Origin: Candidatus Gastranaerophilales bacterium
Lineage (GTDB): Bacteria > Cyanobacteriota > Vampirovibrionia > Gastranaerophilales > Gastranaerophilaceae
Assembly (NCBI GenBank): GCA_944323045.1
Contig: CALUQX010000009.1
Coordinates: forward strand, 11,903-75,902
Direction of reading: 5' to 3'
DNA length: 64,000 nucleotides
Shown: positions 2,440 to 25,540 of the stretch, piece after piece
How positions within the stretch are numbered: the stretch's first letter is position 1
Layout of the letters: each line of letters begins with the position of its first letter
The notes under the pieces: model-generated
Databases searched by the model: none
The model's input: the letters and a program-made list of their open reading frames with translations, nothing else
What the model was told of the DNA's origin: nothing
Program-made: the position numbers and the translations under genes

Positions 2440-4116
2440 ATGTGTTATAATTCAGAAATGAAAGAGATTAAAATTATTGCACCGGTCAAAAAACCTGATG
2501 ATATTCAGCTTTTCGCATCTAAAACGAATTGCCGCGACTATTACGTTTATTACAAGAAATTCCTTAATAATAATTTCGACTATGTGACGGAATTTGTATC
2601 CGCGGCAAAAAATAACAACTGTCGTATCTACATTAATTTTAAACACGATATCACAGAAGAAAATCTTGCAGAAATAAAAAAAATGCTTAAATTTCTGAAA
2701 ACAGCAGGTATTGACGGCATTTTTATAAACAGTTTTGCAATACTAGAGGCGATAAAAGTGTTTAATCTGCCTTTCAAAATAATTGTTGACAGCTATTTTG
2801 ATATACACAATATCGCAGGAATTGATTTTCTGAATAACTTTCATAAAATTGATGAAGTTATCATTACTGAAGAAATTTACATGAAGAATATTGCAAAAAT
2901 CAAAAAATACACAAAGTTGCCGCTGGCAATAGATTCCGACAATCTTCCGTGGTGTGCGGAGGATATACAAAAACTCAAAGCAATAGACAGTGTTGTAATA
3001 AAAGGAAAATTCGCGACATCCGAAGAAATTCTTGAAGGTATTGAACTTGTAGAAAAAATACTCGCTAACCCTAAAATGTTCAAAAATCAAAAACTGCCTT
3101 TTAAACACGTAAGAAAGAGCATTTATCAGACCAACCATTTTTCCGGCGAAGTTGTCAGCGCAGAAGGTAATGACTTTGAATTTAGTTGTAATATCAAGAA
3201 CTTTGACTGGGATATCAAGCCGCCGCGTATAAAGTCAGATTATGAAGGCGCCAGAAAAAATAAATACCGGATAAACTTACGCCTATCAGAACTCGCGCAT
3301 CTAAAAGAGTTAGAAAAATACATTAAAAAAGTTGGCAAATGTCCGATTTATTCTATTGAATATGGTGAAATACTTGCAACAAGTGATTTAGCGACCAGCA
3401 GTTTCAATGAAATAATAATGAAAGTCAAGAAATTTTGCGTAAAATACGGTATTGAATTTCAGTTATCAACTCCCAGAATCCTTATAGAACGTGACTTTGA
3501 CAGAGTTTATGAGTATGTAAAACAGATTATCCTCTCAGATCCTGAACCTTCATCCTTAATCATCAATAATATCGGGTATTTCTGGATGATTCTGAATGAT
3601 ACGGATATGGACGATTTGCCTTTAGAAATTGGGCAGGGAATAAATTTGTTGAACAGCCTTTCTATAAAGTGTTTAAACAGTCTTACGCCTTTAAATACAG
3701 TTGATTTCACGTCATTTAAAGATAAGGAAAGCGCTATTAAAACTATTAAGAAGATAAAAAATCTTATACCGAACCGCAAATATACAATTGCCGGAAATAT
3801 CAGAGTTCCGAGCTTAGGCTTGTGCCCGCTCAATAATGATAGCGCAATAATTTCGCGCCTGTCTTGTGCAGCACCGTGCCATAGAGGCGGATATGCATTG
3901 CATGACCCGTCACTGGATAAAGTCTATCCGTTTACCTGCGACGGTTTTTGCAGAATGCATATGTTTGAAGACCGGATACTGGCGGATTTTGATGATGTAG
4001 AAGAACTCGCCAAAGCCGGAGTTAACGAATTTGTATTTGATTTCAGCGCCCTGAACGCTAAATTTATACCCGTATTGCTTGAAAAATTTTTTAATAGAGC
4101 TGACTTAAAGGCTTGA
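2440..4116 (+). CDS. U32-peptidase-family-like protein (function uncertain)
   Basis: Long ORF with a TIM-barrel-like N-terminus (IKIIAPV...DGIFINS) and a Cys-rich C-terminal part (CAAPCHRGG...CDGFC). The true start may be M at 2458. Confidence 0.4.
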   Translation: MCYNSEMKEIKIIAPVKKPDDIQLFASKTNCRDYYVYYKKFLNNNFDYVTEFVSAAKNNNCRIYINFKHDITEENLAEIKKMLKFLKTAGIDGIFINSFAILEAIKVFNLPFKIIVDSYFDIHNIAGIDFLNNFHKIDEVIITEEIYMKNIAKIKKYTKLPLAIDSDNLPWCAEDIQKLKAIDSVVIKGKFATSEEILEGIELVEKILANPKMFKNQKLPFKHVRKSIYQTNHFSGEVVSAEGNDFEFSCNIKNFDWDIKPPRIKSDYEGARKNKYRINLRLSELAHLKELEKYIKKVGKCPIYSIEYGEILATSDLATSSFNEIIMKVKKFCVKYGIEFQLSTPRILIERDFDRVYEYVKQIILSDPEPSSLIINNIGYFWMILNDTDMDDLPLEIGQGINLLNSLSIKCLNSLTPLNTVDFTSFKDKESAIKTIKKIKNLIPNRKYTIAGNIRVPSLGLCPLNNDSAIISRLSCAAPCHRGGYALHDPSLDKVYPFTCDGFCRMHMFEDRILADFDDVEELAKAGVNEFVFDFSALNAKFIPVLLEKFFNRADLKA

Positions 4117-4405
4117 AAAAATTTGAGACATATGTAATAATGAGTATAAGAATGGCAAAAACTGAGGAATTTGGATGACAGAGTTGTTGGCAGACCGAAA
4201 AGAACAAAATGTAGTTTTGGGTTTCCACCCCGACAATTTCCGTAGGGTGGGCAAAGCAGAGCGTGCCCACCGCAATGTTGGTAACTCCCAGCAAACGGAA
4301 CTTACTCCACTCACAATCCTCACCCCCTTCACTTTTGGTGCGTGCAAACATGAGCCTTTTGCATCTTGCAAAGTGGCTGAAACCCGCATGAATACTGAGT
4401 TTTGC

Positions 4406-4416
4406 GGGGGGGGGGG
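4406..4416 (+). repeat. homopolymeric G11 tract
   Basis: Counted directly: GC-GGGGGGGGGGG-TGCC. The homologous site upstream of paralog B has G10. Confidence 0.95.
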
Positions 4417-4480
4417 TGCCAAACTCTAAGCCCCACAAGGCTTTCCGGCACATTGCAAAATCGTGTCATAGTCAAAACCC

Positions 4481-4536
4481 GTCATCCCGCAACAGGATTG
4501 CGGCAATACACAGAGATTGTGACCTTGCGGGATCTC
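4481..4536 (+). repeat. polar stem-loop element (GTCAT-stem-loop-stem-ATCTC), copy 1 of a perfect direct repeat
   Basis: GTCATCCCGCAACAGGATTGCGGCAATACACAGAGATTGTGACCTTGCGGGATCTC. CCCGCAA can pair with either of two TTGCGG(G) segments. Confidence 0.85.
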
Positions 4537-5036
4537 AAACAAAAATTTACAGTAGACCGTATTTCCCAATCCGCCAGCACCACCACAAGCCAAAAACTTG
4601 TGAATAAATCAATAGTCCTATTAAAACCTACTTAATAAATAGAATTTATGCTAAATTAGCATTATGACAAAGAAAAAACATAAGGATAAAGAATTATGCC
4701 AAAAGATGAAGAATTAAACCAACAATTGAAGAACCACAAAATTCCTCTCCAAGGGGGAGGAAAAGAATTTGTTAGCGAATGTAATGAGCTTACAAATTCA
4801 GGAGGGGGTCAGACCAGTCCGCATTTATACACTGAGTGGTTGCTAAAGAAGTCCAATCACCCAAATTCGACCCAAAACAACTTGTTTCAGGGTCTAGCCA
4901 ACGTGACAGAGGTCGATGAGTTGAATACCCAAACAGTCGTCGCATTAGTGACCCCTCACCAAGAAAGGCTAGCCTCATTACATTCGTCAAGCCTTTCTAT
5001 CCTCTCCCGCAAGGGGCGAGGAGAACGTCATCCCGC

Positions 5037-5092
5037 AACAGGATTGCGGCAATACACAGAGATTGTGACCTTGCGGGATCTCAAAAGAAAAG
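5037..5092 (+). repeat. polar stem-loop element, copy 2 (identical to 4481-4536)
   Basis: About 60 nt identical to the copy 556 bp upstream, extending one base 5' and three bases 3' of the element. Confidence 0.85.
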
Positions 5093-5118
5093 TAGTAACA
5101 AAAAAGGAGAATAAAACA

Positions 5119-6246
5119 ATGAAACTAAACAACAACAAAGCAGTGGCTCAGACCAATTCCAGAAACGGACTTAACGTCCTAACGTCTTATCGTCTTAACG
5201 TCTTTGGAAGACGCTCCGCGTTTACCCTCGCCGAAGTCCTCATCACCCTTGCGATAATCGGCGTAGTGGCGGCGATAACGATACCAAGCCTTGTTAAGAA
5301 CTACAATGAGCATGCATGGTTAACCGCACAGGATGTGTTCACCAAAAGACTTGAAGTCGCAACCCGCCAAATGAACACCGAGGAAAAACTTGCGGGTTAC
5401 AGTTCGACAATGGATTTTGTAAACGAATTAAAGAAGAAAATCAAAATAACCAACGTATGCGATAGCAACAATTTGAGTAAATGCTTTGAAAGCACAATCT
5501 TAACAGCAGACGGTCAGGAAATAGATGCTACTAATTTAAAGACATCCGCCAAACTTGCCAAAGAGGATTGGGGAACGGAAACAGTTGGCGTGCAGTTTGC
5601 AAATGGAATAAATGCATTAATAGCATATAATCCGCAGACAGACCAACAACCGTTCAATAATCAGTTTAGTGCGACTGAGGCAAGCATGGCAATATTGTAT
5701 GACGTATCCGGACACAAAAATCCGAATACCTTAGGTAAAGACGTGAATCAGAACGCGAATGTTAAAAAATTAGGCTGTTATATTAAGCCGGATTTAGTAG
5801 GCGGTATGTGCATAAGCCAGATACTCGTCCCAGGAACAGGCTATAGCCCTATGACGAAAGCAGAATGCGACCAAGCAGTATCCGACGGAGAATTAGGGGT
5901 AAAGGCTTGCCAATATAATGATGATTATTGGGCAGGAGCAGTGAAAGCATGTGGAGGAATAAACAACATGCCAACAGAATCGCAATTAATAGACCTAGCT
6001 AAGTACGTATATAATACAGACAGTATAAACGGCGGAACAAGTACAACACATGCAACCTTAGACACAGAAAAAGCCTCTCAATTCCTCTCAGCATCCCCAT
6101 ATTCTAATTCGTTCTATGTTTGGTCTGGGCAGGAGAGCAGCAGCCTCGGCGCGTACTACCGCGACTTTCGCTATACCTACACGCTCTGGTACGACAGCAG
6201 CGCCCGCGACAGCAGCATCATACTCGCGGTTTGTCTTGACCAGTAA
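5119..6246 (+). CDS. prepilin-type N-terminal methylation-domain protein with lectin-like hypervariable C-terminus (paralog A)
   Basis: AAAAAGGAGA RBS before ATG 5119. AFTLAEVLITLAIIGVVAAITIPSL class-III signal/hydrophobic helix with E at +5. C-terminal YWAGAVKACGG..MPT..QL..LAKYVY...FYVWSG...AVCLDQ resembles the DUF1566/C-type-lectin-like layout. The ORF is open in frame back to 4696 (see findings). Confidence 0.85.
   Translation: MKLNNNKAVAQTNSRNGLNVLTSYRLNVFGRRSAFTLAEVLITLAIIGVVAAITIPSLVKNYNEHAWLTAQDVFTKRLEVATRQMNTEEKLAGYSSTMDFVNELKKKIKITNVCDSNNLSKCFESTILTADGQEIDATNLKTSAKLAKEDWGTETVGVQFANGINALIAYNPQTDQQPFNNQFSATEASMAILYDVSGHKNPNTLGKDVNQNANVKKLGCYIKPDLVGGMCISQILVPGTGYSPMTKAECDQAVSDGELGVKACQYNDDYWAGAVKACGGINNMPTESQLIDLAKYVYNTDSINGGTSTTHATLDTEKASQFLSASPYSNSFYVWSGQESSSLGAYYRDFRYTYTLWYDSSARDSSIILAVCLDQ
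6121..6243 (+). other. candidate DGR variable region (VR-A)
   Basis: GC-rich island in an AT-rich gene. By hand count, 24 of 30 codons in 6136-6225 end in C. Identical flanks in paralog B, with internal differences mostly at codon positions 1-2. Confidence 0.55.
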
Positions 6247-21966: not shown

Positions 21967-22956
21967 TTACTCAACCGGTTCGCCAATAAGAACTGTTTCC
22001 AGAAGAACAGCACCGTCAACCGGTTTAACTATCTTGAATTTATAATTCAGTCCCCAGCTTTCAAGTAATGGTTTTACATCAAAAAACTGTTCAAAATTGT
22101 GATAAATACTTATCAGCAATTTTGGTTTTTGGGTTGTAATTGTTTCTTTTGCGCCAAGCAAAAACGGTATTTCATAGCCTTCAATATCGACTTTAATAAG
22201 TCCGGCATTTACATTATTGGCTTTTACATATTCATCAAGTGTAATCTGTTGGATTTTTTCTGCACCGTCTTCATTTACAGCACTCATTGAGCCTTTTGTT
22301 GCCAGCGCAACTTCTTTGCGGCAGTCACCGAGAACATATTTTTCAGTAACAATATTTGATAAATTATTCAACTCGATTGTTTTTTGCATCAGGGCGTAAT
22401 TTCTCTCATCCGGCTCAAAAACATATATTGGCGCCTCACTGTATTTTCTAAGCACAAGTGCACTATCGCCTATGTAACCGCCAACATCAATAATCGAACG
22501 GTCTTTCAATGAAGACAAATCATTGAATTCATTAATCAAACAATCATGAACAAATACATTACATTCAAAATGCGGAACAGGAAGGAGATATTTTTTGTAA
22601 GCCCAGACGTCTTCGGCAATTTGTATAATATGTCCGGTAAAATCATCCAAATTTTTAAATAATTGAGTTTTTTCTTCTAGGGTGAAAAAGTCAATATTTG
22701 TTTTATTCAAAGCAAGTATTGTTTTGGCGCGCCGAATAATTCTTTGAACAGTGATTATACTATCTTCATCAAGATTATTCACCAGTTTAAGATATTTATC
22801 TTTCAAATTAATATCAGTAAGCTGTGAAAAGTGCTTAAAAATGAAATTCACTTCAAAATTATGCTTGTAAAACATTTTATCATCCATCATTAGTTTAAGC
22901 ATATTTTCACAATTTTGGAGTTTTTGTTCTAACTCACGTAATTTTTCTTCTTCCAT
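21967..22956 (-). CDS. FkbM-family SAM-dependent methyltransferase
   Basis: IIDVGGYIGDSAL (SAM motif I), VYVFEPD, LIKVDIEGYE: the typical FkbM pattern. Confidence 0.7.
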   Translation of the reverse strand: MEEEKLRELEQKLQNCENMLKLMMDDKMFYKHNFEVNFIFKHFSQLTDINLKDKYLKLVNNLDEDSIITVQRIIRRAKTILALNKTNIDFFTLEEKTQLFKNLDDFTGHIIQIAEDVWAYKKYLLPVPHFECNVFVHDCLINEFNDLSSLKDRSIIDVGGYIGDSALVLRKYSEAPIYVFEPDERNYALMQKTIELNNLSNIVTEKYVLGDCRKEVALATKGSMSAVNEDGAEKIQQITLDEYVKANNVNAGLIKVDIEGYEIPFLLGAKETITTQKPKLLISIYHNFEQFFDVKPLLESWGLNYKFKIVKPVDGAVLLETVLIGEPVE

Positions 22957-23270
22957 AATCCACCACCTTTGTATATTATATTACCATAATCTGAATACAC
23001 AGGAGCAGGATTAATGAAAATTAACATAGAGGACTTGCAAAATTTAGCAACATATGTCATAATGAAAATGTGAACAAAAACCGAGGAGTTCAATGACAGG
23101 AAGTATGATGGAACGATTAGAAGAAAATAAATTCTTAATCACTCAATCACCTAATCACTTAATCACTTTAAAAAATGTATGTTTGGGGTTCCACCCAAGC
23201 AATATCCTCACCCCACTTACTTTTGCGCCATGCGATAGGGCTGAAACCCTTGCTATGACTGCATTTGCGC

Positions 23271-23280
23271 GGGGGGGGGG
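23271..23280 (+). repeat. homopolymeric G10 tract
   Basis: Counted directly. Same flanks as the G11 tract at 4406-4416. Confidence 0.95.
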
Positions 23281-23376
23281 TGCCAAACTCTAAGCCCCAC
23301 AAGGCTTTCCGGGCACACGAAGTGTGCTCTTACATATGGAAACCTGCTAAAGAAGTGCAGCCCCTGCCACATTCAT

Positions 23377-23403
23377 GTCATTCTGAACTTGTTTCAGAAT
23401 CTC
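23377..23403 (+). repeat. polar stem-loop element (short variant)
   Basis: GTCAT-TCTGAA-CTTGT-TTCAGA-ATCTC. Same flanks as the CCCGCAA elements but a different stem. Confidence 0.6.
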
Positions 23404-23836
23404 CTCATCGGTCAGTCAGTAGACCGTATTTCCCAATCCGCCAGAACCAACACAAGCCGAAAGCTTGTGCATAAGTCAATAGTCCTATTAAAGCCTACTT
23501 AATAAATAGAATTTGTGATAAATTAGTATTATAACAAAGAAAACATAAGGATAAAGAATTATGCTAAATGATGAAGAATCAAATCAACAATTGAAGAACC
23601 ACAAAATTCCTCTCCGTGGGGGAGGAAGAAATTTGTTGCCGAACGGAGAGAGGCTAGAAATTTCAGGAGGGGGTCGGACCAGACCACATATAGTCCCCCC
23701 ACCCGAACCACTAAACTCACGAAAGTTCGTTAAGTGGTTCCGCCCTCCCCTCAGGAGAGGGCACCAAGCCAACCACGAGGAAACAATCAGTAATACACAA
23801 TCAGAAGATAGAAACAACAGAAAGGAGCAACTCCAA

Positions 23837-24976
23837 ATGAAAACCAAAAACAAAATCAACGAATCAACCGCTCAGACCAATTCCAGAAACAACGGTACTC
23901 ACCATACTCACTTCACTCACTTAGTCACGTCCCCAAAAGCCGCGTTTACCCTCGCCGAAGTCCTAATCACCCTCGCAATCATCGGCGTAGTAGCGGCGAT
24001 AACGATACCGAGCTTAGTCAAGAATTACAATGAAAAGGCATGGGAAAGTGGACAAAAAGTTTTTGAAAACAGATTACTTGTAGCTACACGTCAGATGAAC
24101 ACAGAGGAAAAATTGGCAGGTTATTCTTCAACCATGGACTTTGTGAATGAGTTGAAAAAATATATTAAAATAACCCGTGTCTGCGATAATGACAACATTA
24201 CCAAATGCTTTAATAAAGAAGTAATCTGGAGTGCTGATGAAGAGCCGGTAGACATGTCAAAAGTAACAGATGCATCAGCTTTTGGTCTGGATTGGGAGAC
24301 TGATACGGTAGCAGTTCAGTTTGCGAACGGTGTAAATGCAGTAATTGCTTACAATCCGAATGCAACACAAGACCCATATAATAACCAGTTTGCGGCGACC
24401 TCAAAATCCATGGCAATATTGTATGATTTGTCAGGAAACAAGAATCCGAATACAAATGGTAAGGATATAAAAAATATAAATGTAGACCAGTTAGCCGGTG
24501 TAGAAGGCTGTTTGATACCTGAGTTAAAAGATACAATGTGCATAACGAAAATTATATCTCCGGAAGAATACGGATATTTATCATATTCAGAATGTACCGA
24601 GGCTAAGAATAACGGCGAAATAGACGTAGATGCATGTTATAATGGCTCAAGTCCAGATTATTTTGCGGGCGCAGTAAAAGCATGTGGAGGTAAGAAAGCA
24701 AACTTACCAAGCCAAGACCAGCTAACGCAGCTAGCAAAATATGTATATGGAACAGACAGTATAAACTCCAGCGGTTATACATATGACCTAGCTTTAGACA
24801 CAACCAAAGCCTCCCAATTCCGCTCAGCAAGAGGTACTGATTACTTCTATGTTTGGTCTGGGCAGGAGTATAGCCGCGACCGCGCGTACTTCCGCTTCTT
24901 CTACTCTACCGGCACGAACGGGAACGACTGCAACCGCCACTACAGCTACGCTCTTGCGGTTTGTCTAGACCAGTAA
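23837..24976 (+). CDS. prepilin-type N-terminal methylation-domain protein with lectin-like hypervariable C-terminus (paralog B)
   Basis: AAAGGAG RBS before ATG 23837. AFTLAEVLITLAIIGVVAAITIPSL. Central 79 aa identical to paralog C. C-terminal FYVWSGQE...AVCLDQ. The ORF is open in frame back to 23561. Confidence 0.85.
   Translation: MKTKNKINESTAQTNSRNNGTHHTHFTHLVTSPKAAFTLAEVLITLAIIGVVAAITIPSLVKNYNEKAWESGQKVFENRLLVATRQMNTEEKLAGYSSTMDFVNELKKYIKITRVCDNDNITKCFNKEVIWSADEEPVDMSKVTDASAFGLDWETDTVAVQFANGVNAVIAYNPNATQDPYNNQFAATSKSMAILYDLSGNKNPNTNGKDIKNINVDQLAGVEGCLIPELKDTMCITKIISPEEYGYLSYSECTEAKNNGEIDVDACYNGSSPDYFAGAVKACGGKKANLPSQDQLTQLAKYVYGTDSINSSGYTYDLALDTTKASQFRSARGTDYFYVWSGQEYSRDRAYFRFFYSTGTNGNDCNRHYSYALAVCLDQ
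24853..24973 (+). other. candidate DGR variable region (VR-B)
   Basis: By hand count, 22 of 29 codons in 24869-24955 end in C. Flanks identical to VR-A. Confidence 0.55.
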
Positions 24977-24991: not shown

Positions 24992-25540
24992 AATGGAGGC
25001 ACTAAGTTACTAAGGCACTAAGGCACTAAGGATTAAATTGAAATAAGGTAATGTGAAACGCGCACATTGCCTTATTTTTTGTAAAGAACTTGTTCCCTTA
25101 ACAACAAGCAATGTGGAAAATTCCACGTTGTCTGTTGTTGTAACTACTTAGTGCCCTAGCCCCCTAGTGCCTTAGTAACTTCTGTTTCTGAGATCGCGCA
25201 ACTGCTTGGTTGCTCGCAATAAACGGGTCTACGGGCTGCTCCGCCGGCTCCACGCCGCCGTGTGCGCCCTGCGCCCTCTGCTCGCAATCCGCAAGTGCGC
25301 GATGACATGGTATAGGGGCGAGGAAAATTCAGCGTTGCCTGATTCATGTAACCCGCTTAATCACTTAATCACCCAGTCACTTAATCACTTTTGTAACAAC
25401 CGTTCACTGTTCACCGTTCACAATTCACAGAGAACCGGTGCGTCGAAACGACAGCACCCTACGAATAACTTCTTTAGCCGCCACCCAGAGTATAAGAGTA
25501 GGCTACGCCTACCTGCGCCTACCCACTTGTAAATGTTTTG
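24992..25540. repeat. mosaic interspersed-repeat region downstream of paralog B
   Basis: Same module set as 6262-6780 in a different order. It also holds a polar stem-loop (25190-25310) whose loop is a very GC-rich ~100-nt insert. Confidence 0.85.

What the first reader, a model, noticed from the sequence alone, without database searches (positions are those of the whole stretch)
23050..23836. Homologous 0.8-1 kb leaders of A and B look like a modular structured RNA
The conserved blocks are shared at nucleotide level, including would-be synonymous positions. They are separated by different inserted hairpin modules in A and B. Several segments offer mutually exclusive pairings. In A, CCACCC / GGGTGGGCA / TGCCCACC lie at ~4215-4270, and CCCGCAA pairs with either of two TTGCGG(G). 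In both, TTCCTCTCC-NN-GGGGGAGGAA occurs. In B, GAACCACTAAAC...GTTAAGTGGTTC and GCCCTCCCC-TCAG-GAGAGGGC occur. This is more consistent with a cis-regulatory RNA or an independent ncRNA than with protein coding. I cannot assign it to any known RNA family.
Basis: partly seen in the sequence, partly recalled or inferred. Interest (0 to 1): 0.6.

Follow-up and report, generated by a model that had tools for sequence, protein, structure and literature searches.

The report
Repeat-built pilin leader with poly-G switch
The 0.8-1 kb "leaders" in front of two pilin-like surface-protein genes of an uncultured gut relative of cyanobacteria are not one structured RNA. They are a patchwork of small hairpin repeats threaded onto reading frames that are kept open, and a run of 10-12 Gs decides how far ribosomes read, which looks like a per-gene on/off switch.

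Summary

The leader belongs to a genus-restricted family, with about 16 copies in this Gastranaerophilales genome, each upstream of a ~380-400 aa pilin-like gene. Its order is:
- a conserved sigma-70 promoter;
- a small leader ORF (uORF1, B 23093-23293) holding a G10-12 tract;
- a hairpin-module array;
- an AT-rich spacer;
- in A and B, a second ORF (from 23561) that runs in frame into the prepilin gene.

uORF1 has no stop in 27 distinct copies (5,968 nt). The other two frames have 133 and 154. Its substitutions look neutral, so being translated is conserved and the peptide is not. After the G tract one frame stops at once. The other two stay open through unrelated modules (stops 67/0/10).

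One locus differs between samples by a single G, G10 against G11, which switches the long and short forms.

The hairpins covary, but they are dispersed repeats. One type is a sub-threshold relative of Rfam whalefall-1, and another is REP-like.

My best reading is a poly-G-gated, translated leader. The effect on pilin expression is inferred, not shown.

The parts
23035..23063 (+). Leader B: sigma-70-type promoter P1, TTGCAA-17-CATAAT with an extended -10 TG
   Evidence: Consensus scan. The same TTGAAA/TTGCAA-N17-(ATATGT)AATAAT block is conserved in 27 distinct leader copies, with the uORF1 ATG 29-33 nt downstream of it in nearly all (12 nt in two).
23093..23293 (+). Leader B: uORF1 in its short state, 66 aa, MTGS...ARGGGAKL*. 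The SD GAGGAG lies at 23083-23088.
   Evidence: The ATG frame has no stop in 27 distinct copies (5,968 nt), against 133 and 154 stops in the other frames. Substitutions show no codon-position bias. No Pfam match.
23134..23159 (+). Tandem TAATCAC-type octamer array inside uORF1
   Evidence: About 61 copies of the double unit occur genome-wide. It is also present across the family.
23271..23280 (+). Poly-G tract, G10 here and G11 in A at 4406-4416
   Evidence: Sixteen of the 21 G/C runs of 8 or more in the genome sit at this position of this leader family (plus one interrupted variant on C11), with lengths of 10-13 among copies. The same locus reads G10 against G11 between samples.
23281..23310 (+). 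Conserved block E1, TGCCAAACTCTAAGCCCCACAAGGCTTTCC, carrying the immediate TAA (23291-23293) of the short frame
   Evidence: It is present in G000, G004 and one further Gastranaerophilales MAG only.
23278..23502 (+). The two open extension frames after the G tract: 23280-23474 (VPNSKPHKAF...KPKACA*) and 23278-23502 (CQTLSPTRLS...LLKPT*)
   Evidence: Across 21 loci, stops between E1 and the CACAAGC hairpin are 67 in the TAA frame, 0 in one extension frame and 10 in the other. The minus strand has 69/49/70. Real genes of this genome carry 23 and 35 off-frame stops per kb.
23313..23327 (+). Hairpin module GCACACGAAGTGTGC
   Evidence: Seven copies in the genome.
23377..23403 (+). GTCAT...ATCTC hairpin repeat, GTCATTCTGAACTTGTTTCAGAATCTC
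   Evidence: Exact or near-exact copies occur in many genomes of the family and order.
23417..23469 (+). C-rich block M plus the hairpin CACAAGCCGAAAGCTTGTG, at which the long uORF1 frames end
23476..23560 (+). AT-rich spacer with stops in all frames and the SD AAGGAT (23547-23552)
   Evidence: About 95% identical among the six class I loci.
23561..23837 (+). In-frame N-terminal extension (uORF2) of the pilin-like ORF 23561-24976, probably a giant repeat-laden prepilin leader peptide
   Evidence: Between the ATG and the FTLAE motif there are 0 stops in-frame against 5-15 off-frame, in five loci with three different module sets. G004 has a ~265-codon equivalent. The N_methyl motif lies at residues 126-148.
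23606..23675 (+). Two-hairpin repeat (the H-R module), whalefall-1-like
   Evidence: RF01762 at 21.5 bits against a gathering score of 37. Covariation is shown.
23695..23764 (-). Second whalefall-1-like repeat in the opposite orientation. It contains the GAACCACTAAAC...GTTAAGTGGTTC and GCCCTCCCC...GAGAGGGC hairpins.
   Evidence: RF01762 at 19.1 bits on the minus strand. The reverse complement shows the same layout.
23822..23840 (+). Canonical SD (AAGGAG) and ATG (23838) of the prepilin gene, the start used by paralogues that lack the long leader
4113..4141 (+). Leader A: promoter P1, TTGAAA-17-AATAAT with TG
4175..4429 (+). Leader A: uORF1 in its short state (84 aa). It holds a REP-like hairpin GTAGGGTGGGCA...TGCCCACC at 4242-4271 and G11 at 4406-4416.
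4414..4635 (+). Leader A: the two open extension frames, ending at 4605-4607 and 4633-4635, running through the GTCATCCCGCAA element (4481-4536) and block M
4696..5119 (+). Leader A: 141-codon in-frame extension of the pilin-like ORF. It holds a whalefall-1-like repeat (4741-4810) and a second copy of the GTCAT element (5027-5082).

Best explanation
The region is the 5' control region of one subfamily of pilin-like, variable-tip surface-protein genes in a Candidatus Gastranaerophilales genome. It is a composite, not a single RNA.

Shown by the sequence analysis:
- A conserved sigma-70 promoter (B 23035-23063) lies 29-33 nt upstream of the start codon of a small leader ORF, uORF1.
- uORF1 is kept open in every copy, but its peptide evolves neutrally.
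- A G10-12 tract sits in the middle of uORF1. One reading frame meets a conserved TAA immediately after the tract. The other two frames stay open for 130-250 nt through whatever hairpin repeats are present, and end at or just after a conserved hairpin (CACAAGC...GCTTGTG).
- In A and B an AT-rich spacer follows, and then a second ORF that runs in frame into the prepilin gene.
- The 'inserted modules' are dispersed hairpin repeats (whalefall-1-like two-hairpin units, GTCAT...ATCTC hairpins, REP-like GTAG hairpins) and tandem octamers. They occur elsewhere in this and related genomes in both orientations. They keep their pairing by compensatory change, and they are tolerated inside translated DNA.

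Inferred:
- The G tract works as a slipped-strand (or transcriptional-slippage) switch that sets how far ribosomes travel along the leader.
- Ribosome transit through the hairpin array changes the yield of the downstream pilin-like gene, for example by keeping RNA polymerase moving or by protecting or unfolding the mRNA.
- This would give each of about 16 genes its own stochastic switch.
- The A/B sequence blocks are shared because the loci are paralogues that keep exchanging sequence.
For: - Family and context: leader blocks occur in about 16 loci of the genome in mosaic combinations. Of the 16 E1 copies, all 14 with enough downstream sequence to show the whole gene (a 15th, at a contig end, shows only its start) lie 255-793 nt upstream of the FTLAE motif of a ~380-400 aa pilin-like gene ending ...LAVC...
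- Promoter and SD: both are conserved in 27 distinct copies.
- uORF1 is kept open: 0 stops in the ATG frame against 133 and 154 in the others over 5,968 nt. The expectation was about 143.
- The peptide is not constrained: variable columns fall 30/31/24 by codon position, and the synonymous fraction is 0.22 against a neutral 0.24.
- After the tract: plus-strand stops are 67/0/10 by frame in 21 loci carrying different modules, and 69/49/70 on the minus strand. In real genes an off-frame stretch of 200 nt is stop-free less than 1% of the time.
- G tracts: 16 of the 21 G/C runs of 8 or more in a 36% G+C genome are in this element (17 counting an interrupted variant on C11). Lengths among copies are 10-13.
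- Tract polymorphism: the same locus in another sample (L058) differs from G000 C7:38437 over about 650 nt by 4 substitutions plus G10 against G11, which switches long and short uORF1. A 715-nt leader cassette is 99.6% identical between G000 and G004, with 2 mismatches and one gap. The tract reads G11 in one copy and G12 in the other, again switching long and short.
- Both states are seen among gene calls in public assemblies.
- In-frame extension: 0 stops against 5-15 in five loci with three module sets. A paralogue pair shows a 141-nt module inserted in frame in a prepilin leader peptide.
- Modules are dispersed repeats.
- Hairpin covariation.
Against:
- At loci A and B themselves the tract length is the same in two other samples each.
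- The one same-locus polymorphism comes from a 3x-coverage metagenome contig, so a homopolymer error is possible.
- The repeat elements are intrinsically poor in stops even outside leaders. Part of the 'two open frames' signal is therefore a property of the elements, and many loci share modules by descent, so the loci are not independent.
- No Rho factor is detectable and no convincing intrinsic terminator lies in the leader. The physical link between leader translation and pilin expression is therefore unknown, and the direction (long = ON or OFF) is a guess.
- The canonical prepilin start (23838) has its own strong SD, and there may be a second promoter in the AT-rich spacer. Either could uncouple the gene from the switch.
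Confidence: 0.55

Rival explanations
1. Passive patchwork. The leaders are recently duplicated and gene-converted upstream regions that have collected selfish hairpin repeats (REP/MITE-like). The open frames follow from the repeats being GC-rich and stop-poor. The poly-G tract and uORF1 have no regulatory role.
For: The modules are dispersed and multi-copy, and occur in both orientations. GTCAT elements outside leaders also have 0-1 closed frames. A RAYT-type Y1 transposase flanked by GTAG-headed REPs exists in the genome. Truncated 'solo' leaders exist. Tract length did not change at loci A and B in other samples.
Against: Composition cannot explain 0 stops against 133/154 in uORF1. It also cannot explain all 67 stops falling in one frame while the minus strand shows no such bias (31). 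The same module has its stops purged in different frames depending on its phase: C34 has both frames open, C16 only one. The promoter, SD, ATG and tract are conserved in position in 27 copies. G runs are essentially confined to this element.
Confidence: 0.2
2. One reading: a dedicated structured cis-regulatory RNA, riboswitch- or thermometer-like, or an independent ncRNA, whose conserved blocks form a defined fold.
For: The predicted folding is strong, z = -5.8. There are compensatory changes in hairpins. There is no peptide-level constraint. One module resembles the Rfam sRNA motif whalefall-1.
Against: The modules are present or absent independently and are shared with unrelated sites, including 3' gene ends in inverted orientation. 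The most conserved block (E1) shows sequence conservation but little covariation. No Rfam family reaches threshold. The frame-specific absence of stops is not expected for an untranslated RNA.
Confidence: 0.08
3. Recombination scaffold. The conserved blocks exist mainly as homology tracts that let pilin-like cassettes be swapped between expression sites, as in pilE/pilS-type gene conversion. The leader sequence matters as DNA.
For: In other samples, the same flanking genes and the 5' half of leader A or B are joined to a different downstream half and a different pilin-like gene. A 715-nt leader cassette is 99.6% identical between two species while the adjacent coding sequence is 88% identical and the upstream flank is unrelated. 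Many contigs end inside leaders. Solo leaders exist.
Against: The junctions lie in repeats, and the contigs have 3-5x coverage, so chimeric assembly cannot be excluded. This view does not explain the open-frame constraints or the G tract. It is compatible with the main explanation rather than exclusive of it.
Confidence: 0.12
4. uORF1 and the extension encode functional proteins, for example a small regulator or a functional pro-domain.
For: The frames are kept open, and gene callers predict them in public assemblies.
Against: The substitution pattern is neutral. There is no Pfam family. The peptides are translations of palindromic repeats, and their content differs wholesale between copies. 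In G003 the same H-R module carries stops in all frames when it lies outside such ORFs.
Confidence: 0.05

Closest known systems
Translational phase variation by homopolymeric or short repeats in the 5' or signal-peptide region of surface-protein gene families (Neisseria pilC poly-G, opa CTCTT repeats; from general knowledge)
   Same: A multigene family of surface proteins in which each copy has its own hypermutable repeat inside a translated 5' region. Repeat length sets the reading frame. Most copies are in the terminated state (21 of 27 short).
   Different: The tract is not in the structural gene. It lies in a separate leader ORF 255-793 nt upstream, whose peptide is unconstrained. Two of the three frames are kept open. 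The link to downstream expression is unknown.
Poly-G tracts upstream of paralogous surface genes (Treponema pallidum tpr subfamily II promoters; Moraxella catarrhalis uspA1 5' UTR poly-G; from general knowledge)
   Same: A G tract in a conserved 5' region shared by paralogous surface-protein genes.
   Different: Those tracts act on promoter or UTR function without a reading frame. Here the tract is embedded in a maintained ORF downstream of the promoter.
Mosaic intergenic repeats: E. coli REP/BIME with RAYT transposases, Neisseria NIME/Correia elements, and cyanobacterial STRR heptamers and small dispersed repeats (from general knowledge)
   Same: Short GC-rich palindromes and tandem 7-8-mers combined in varying mosaics, with compensatory changes in the stems. 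A single-copy Y1 transposase is flanked by GTAG-headed palindromes. The repeats are concentrated near surface-protein genes.
   Different: Here many copies lie inside translated frames and are kept stop-free in the frames used. Most module types lack the GTAG head.
Rickettsia palindromic elements (RPE; from general knowledge)
   Same: Palindromic repeats inserted in frame into ORFs without breaking them (a 141-nt module in a prepilin leader peptide).
   Different: No sequence relationship was tested. Here the insertions are confined to parts of proteins that are discarded (leader peptides) or to leader ORFs.
Rfam RF01762 whalefall-1 RNA motif (Weinberg et al. 2010, PMC2864571)
   Same: The same layout and several conserved letters: CUCUCC-loop-GGGGAG hairpin, AGA, a second variable hairpin, and a UCAGG.G.GG.C tail.
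   Different: The scores are 19-31 bits against a gathering score of 37. The second hairpin is much longer. Here it is a dispersed repeat with 4-26 copies per genome, occurs in both orientations, and often lies inside ORFs. In the paper it was classed as a free-standing non-coding RNA known only from a whale-fall metagenome.

Membership tests
Rfam whalefall-1 (RF01762) | Covariance-model score at or above the gathering score (37 bits) | tested here: not met
   21.5 bits at 23606-23675(+) and 19.1 bits at 23695-23764(-). The best score in the own genome is 26.3 bits, and in the genus 30.7.
Rfam whalefall-1 (RF01762) | Two-hairpin architecture with conserved CUCUCC/GGGGAG stem and UCAGG..GG.C tail | tested here: met
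   Alignment to the model over positions 1-56. Both helices are supported by covariation in 22 copies.
Simple-sequence contingency locus (phase variation) | Long homopolymer, far beyond chance, at a conserved position | tested here: met
   G10-13 in every copy. Sixteen of the 21 G/C runs of 8 or more in the genome are at this position, plus one interrupted variant on C11.
Simple-sequence contingency locus (phase variation) | Tract lies in a translated frame, so that +/-1 changes the product | tested here: met
   Upstream, only the ATG frame is open, with stops 0/133/154. Downstream, one frame stops at once and two continue. That uORF1 is actually translated is inferred, not shown.
Simple-sequence contingency locus (phase variation) | Tract length differs between cells or strains at the same locus | tested here: inconclusive
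   G10 against G11 at one otherwise 99% identical locus. G11 against G12 in a 99.6% identical cassette of another species. No difference at loci A and B in 2+2 other samples. All of these are consensus assemblies at low coverage.
Simple-sequence contingency locus (phase variation) | Tract length changes expression of the controlled gene | not testable with these tools
   No RNA or protein data.
REP / RAYT repeats | GTAG head followed by a GC-rich imperfect palindrome, with a cognate Y1 (RAYT) transposase flanked by such repeats | tested here: inconclusive
   The genome has one Y1 transposase (PF01797) flanked by inverted GTAGGGTGCGTCG..CGACGCACC repeats. Leader A has GTAGGGTGGGCA..TGCCCACC at 4242-4271. 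Leader B has no GTAG-headed palindrome, and its modules have other heads (GTCAT, CCTCTCC).
Riboswitch or dedicated cis-regulatory structured RNA | One conserved multi-helix architecture kept across homologues, supported by covariation | tested here: not met
   Only local hairpins covary. Modules are gained, lost and swapped between copies. The invariant E1 block shows almost no covariation. There are no Rfam hits.
Leader-peptide transcription attenuation or Rho-dependent polarity | Terminator/antiterminator alternatives or a Rho factor that reads untranslated leader RNA | tested here: not met
   No Rho_RNA_bind domain in a 97%-complete genome. No hairpin followed by a U run between uORF1 and the pilin start. 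The only terminator-like call, at 23607-23627, is hairpin 1 of a repeat.
Type IV prepilin (N_methyl) leader peptide | Short N-terminal leader directly before the methylation/cleavage motif | tested here: not met
   If translation starts at 23561, the motif sits at residues 126-148. From the canonical ATG at 23838 the leader is about 35 aa. Which start is used could not be tested.

The most novel reading that the evidence does not exclude
A new kind of contingency switch. The leader ORF exists only to be translated. The length of its G tract decides whether ribosomes stop at once or plough through an array of mobile hairpin repeats up to the next gene. Selection therefore keeps two of the three frames open through whatever repeats land there. 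About 16 variable-tip pilin-like genes would each carry such a switch, in a lineage without Rho. In addition, prepilin leader peptides of 90-260 residues made of translated repeats would be tolerated because they stay cytoplasmic and are cleaved off.
Probability: 0.35. Interest if true: 0.75.

Novelty: new variant of a known kind. Interest (0 to 1): 0.58.

Why it matters
If this reading is right, it matters in four ways.
- It gives a testable model for how an uncultured gut Melainabacteria lineage varies a large family of adhesin-like pseudopilins one gene at a time. This would add to the DGR-type tip variation and the private repressors noted elsewhere in this genome.
- It would be an example of selection for translatability without selection on the peptide. 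It would also show mobile hairpin repeats shaped to live inside reading frames. Both are traps for gene callers, which already call these ORFs as proteins in public assemblies.
- It links an orphan Rfam motif, whalefall-1, to a dispersed repeat family with an identifiable host lineage.
- In practice, these leaders break metagenome assemblies. Many contigs end in them.

Tried and rejected
- Rfam, at gathering and permissive thresholds: only tRNA-Gly and sub-threshold whalefall-1 matches.
- Rho-dependent polarity as the link between leader translation and pilin expression: rejected, because no Rho RNA-binding domain is detectable.
- Classical attenuator: no hairpin followed by a U run in the right place. 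I noticed a possible pairing between block M (AATCCGCC) and GGTGGATT in class III leaders by eye, but it is absent from A and B, so I dropped it.
- Functional peptide: no Pfam family for uORF1 in its short or long form, and the substitution pattern is neutral.
- Scan of JGI metagenome contigs for the E1 block: nothing found.
- Positional orthology between G000 and G004 leaders: the flanks are unrelated, so these are not strict orthologues.
- Treating the strain-level differences at loci A and B as proven cassette exchange: not accepted, because the junctions lie in repeats on low-coverage contigs.
- An early estimate of a 350-codon repeat-only ORF on C7 was corrected to 262 codons.
Full report
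**What is there**

The window is contig C9:11903-75902 of a 1.98-Mb, 36% G+C, 97%-complete MAG. Related records carrying the same element are titled Candidatus Gastranaerophilales. The genome encodes at least 72 prepilin-type proteins with the motif AFTLAEVLITLAIIG.

The finding concerns the region upstream of one of them, gene B (canonical ATG at 23838), and its paralogue A (ATG at 5120). The two upstream regions align with 76% column identity and long identical runs. The B leader folds much better than shuffled sequence, z = -5.8.

**The leader is a multi-copy family**

BLAST of A and B against the whole genome finds the blocks in about 16 loci, in different combinations, and many contigs end inside them. 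Of the 16 copies of the most conserved block (E1, TGCCAAACTCTAAGCCCCACAAGGCTTTCC or its TATCTAACTTCAAGCC variant), all 14 with enough downstream sequence to show the whole gene lie 255-793 nt upstream of the FTLAE motif of a ~380-400 aa pilin-like gene ending ...LAVC... A 15th, at a contig end, shows only the start of such a gene.

Outside this genome, the E1 block with its G tract was found in only two other species representatives: 16 copies in G004 (BRZ_AS bin11) and one in BRZ_DC bin16. It was not found in JGI metagenome contigs.

**Anatomy**

All copies share the same order.
1. A sigma-70-type promoter comes first: TTGAAA or TTGCAA, a 17-nt spacer ending ATATGT, then AATAAT or CATAAT.
2. 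In nearly all copies (12 nt in two), an SD (GAGGAG or GAGGAA) and an ATG follow 29-33 nt later.
3. An ORF (uORF1) runs 113-387 nt to a G10-13 tract.
4. The E1 block follows.
5. A variable set of hairpin modules comes next.
6. A conserved hairpin, CACAAG(C/T)...CTTGTG, closes the array.
7. An AT-rich spacer with stops in all frames follows.
8. The pilin-like gene is last.

In six 'class I' loci, including A and B, the spacer carries another SD and ATG (B 23561). From there an ORF runs in frame into the prepilin gene.

**Reading frames are under selection, peptides are not**

In 27 distinct uORF1 5' parts (5,968 nt) the ATG frame has no stop. The other two frames have 133 and 154, and the minus strand has 64/105/44. 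Seven equal-length copies show variable columns of 30/31/24 by codon position. Their synonymous fraction is 0.22, against 0.24 expected from random non-stop mutation. The frame is therefore kept open while the peptide drifts.

Downstream of the tract, up to the CACAAGC hairpin, I counted plus-strand stops by frame in 21 loci of G000 and G004. There are 67 in the frame that also holds the immediate TAA, 0 in the KPHKAF frame, and 10 in the SPTRLS frame, the last confined to three loci. The minus strand has 69/49/70. In real genes of this genome the two off-frames carry 23 and 35 stops per kb, and a 200-nt off-frame stretch is stop-free less than 1% of the time.

The modules in this stretch differ between loci. 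The same module can sit in different phases with its stops purged accordingly. In C34 both extension frames are open, while in C16 only one is.

There are caveats. The repeat elements are intrinsically stop-poor, and the loci share modules by descent. The counts therefore overstate independence, but the frame specificity is not explained by composition.

**The G tract**

Sixteen of the 21 G/C runs of 8 or more in this AT-rich genome sit at this position of this element, and a further interrupted variant lies in a leader on C11. Two others lie inside glycosyltransferase-like ORFs on C1.

Of the 27 distinct copies, 21 are in the short state (...GGGGAKL* or ...GGGGI*), 5 are in the long KPHKAF state and 1 is in the long SPTRLS state.

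A protein search with a hybrid query recovered both short and long gene calls from other assemblies. Fetching one of them showed a 1.5-kb contig from sample BRZ_FQ. Over about 650 nt, from the promoter to the pilin start, it differs from the G000 locus C7:38437 by four substitutions and by G10 against G11. That difference converts the 89-aa short uORF1 into a 147-aa long form.

A 715-nt leader cassette is 99.6% identical between G000 (C2:81597-82310) and G004, with 2 mismatches and one gap. The tract reads G11 in one copy and G12 in the other, again switching long and short.

At loci A and B themselves, two other samples each show the same tract length as the window. Tract instability is therefore supported, but not demonstrated at the locus in question, and all the evidence comes from low-coverage consensus assemblies.

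**The second ORF**

From the ATG at 23561 (4696 in A) to the FTLAE motif, the in-frame count is 0 stops, against 5-15 in each other frame. This holds in five loci with three different module sets. A G004 locus has a ~265-codon in-frame extension with a different start. A leader-only locus, C7:229-1017, is a 262-codon ORF made of repeats.

A paralogue pair, C2:82197 and C8:33896, shows a 141-nt module inserted in frame inside an otherwise identical prepilin leader peptide.

Prepilin leader peptides stay on the cytoplasmic side and are removed by the prepilin peptidase; this is established knowledge of type IV pilin biogenesis. Very long, sequence-unconstrained leaders are therefore topologically plausible. 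Which start codon is used could not be tested. The canonical ATG at 23838 has its own strong SD.

**What the modules are**

Each is a dispersed repeat.
- The TAATCAC-type octamer array has about 61 copies and is found across the family.
- The GTCATTCTGAAC...ATCTC hairpin recurs exactly in many genera.
- GTCATCCCGCA elements have 29 copies.
- The unit containing TTCCTCTCC-NN-GGGGGAGGAA is a 70-nt two-hairpin element. It matches Rfam whalefall-1 below threshold, at 21.5 bits against a gathering score of 37.

Such sub-threshold copies number 4-26 per genome in this genus and one sister genus, and none elsewhere among 25 relatives.

In 22 copies of the two-hairpin unit from four genomes, 7 of 21 pairs show changes on both sides (28 cells). 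This was matched by 0 of 500 shuffles, and by 0-2 pairs when the partners were slid.

Leader A also holds a GTAG-headed palindrome. The genome has a single Y1 transposase flanked by inverted GTAG-headed palindromes, a REP/RAYT arrangement.

In G003 the two-hairpin unit occurs in other contexts, with stops in all frames. Covariation therefore shows that the hairpins matter, as RNA or as single-stranded DNA. It does not show that the leader is one designed RNA.

**Mechanism**

Shown: the promoter, SD and ATG are conserved; the frames are kept open; the G tract lies at the frame junction; there is a tract polymorphism; and the modules are dispersed repeats.

Inferred: uORF1 is translated; tract length sets the distance ribosomes travel; and this alters expression of the downstream gene. 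I considered Rho-dependent polarity, but no Rho RNA-binding domain is detectable. No convincing intrinsic terminator or antiterminator pair was found either. What remains is ribosome-assisted passage of RNA polymerase through the hairpin array, or ribosome-dependent protection or unfolding of the mRNA. The predominance of the short state (21 of 27) would fit 'short = off', as in other contingency families, but that is a guess.

**Comparison with what is known**

The nearest functional analogues are repeat-controlled surface-protein families (Neisseria pilC and opa, T. pallidum tpr, M. catarrhalis uspA1; from general knowledge). The difference is a separate leader ORF with two maintained extension frames.

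The nearest structural analogues are mosaic repeat systems (REP/BIME, NIME, cyanobacterial STRR and small dispersed repeats) and the in-frame Rickettsia palindromic elements. The nearest RNA family is whalefall-1, which Weinberg et al. 2010 described as a free-standing ncRNA known only from a whale-fall metagenome. Membership is not met on score.

An earlier agent of this scan reached a similar 'poly-G frame switch' reading for leader A. I reached mine before seeing that note and tested it with independent counts.

**Verdict**

The 'structured RNA' label is partly right for the hairpins but wrong as a description of the whole. The leader is best described as a translated, poly-G-gated 5' region built from mobile hairpin repeats. 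I rate it a new variant of known kinds, moderately to highly interesting, with the regulatory consequence still untested.

Noticed in passing
G000 contig C1:111138-111147 and C1:115524-115535 (outside the window): Two further G10/G12 tracts lie inside ordinary ORFs in a glycosyltransferase-like region. They look like classical translational phase-variation sites for surface-sugar genes.
   Followed up: partly
G000 contig C6:46346-46870; related repeat in window 25430-25470: A single Y1 (IS200/RAYT-type) transposase gene is flanked by inverted GTAGGGTGCGTCG(T/A)TTCGACGCACC palindromes. The same palindrome lies downstream of gene B in the window.
   Followed up: partly
Loci L051 (sample BRZ_I) and L056 (sample BRZ_GG), compared with window 22901-24000 and 4001-5300: In other samples, the same flanking genes and the 5' half of leader B or A continue into a different 3' leader half and a different pilin-like gene, the cassette that sits at C8:1-2091 in this genome. 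This is either cassette exchange at leader blocks or chimeric assembly in repeats.
   Followed up: partly
G000 C2:81597-82310 compared with L044 7022-7736 (G004): A 715-nt leader cassette is 99.6% identical between two species. The adjoining coding sequence is 88% identical, and the upstream flank is unrelated.
   Followed up: partly
G000 C15:28080-28900, C4:29220-30100, C7:76000-76860, C7:229-1017: 'Solo' leaders: promoter plus the start of uORF1, or the spacer ATG, followed only by repeat modules and 3'-type trailer repeats, with no pilin gene. One is a 262-codon ORF made only of repeats.
   Followed up: partly
window 25000-25180: Downstream of gene B, two arrays of GGCACTAA-type octamers in inverted orientation bracket a terminator-like hairpin (25108-25131). 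These are the same kind of tandem octamers as in the leader and in the prepilin leader peptides.
   Followed up: no
window 4091-4453, minus strand: Two minus-strand ORFs of 120 and 105 aa overlap uORF1 of leader A. They are most likely a by-product of the stop-poor GC-rich repeats, because across all copies the minus strand carries many stops.
   Followed up: yes
G003 locus L019 about 400-760: In another species of the genus, the two-hairpin repeat and a second module are read in a different frame as part of a prepilin leader peptide (MLKPTQNNAQFLSKGEE...GEGNRAAFTLAEV).
   Followed up: no
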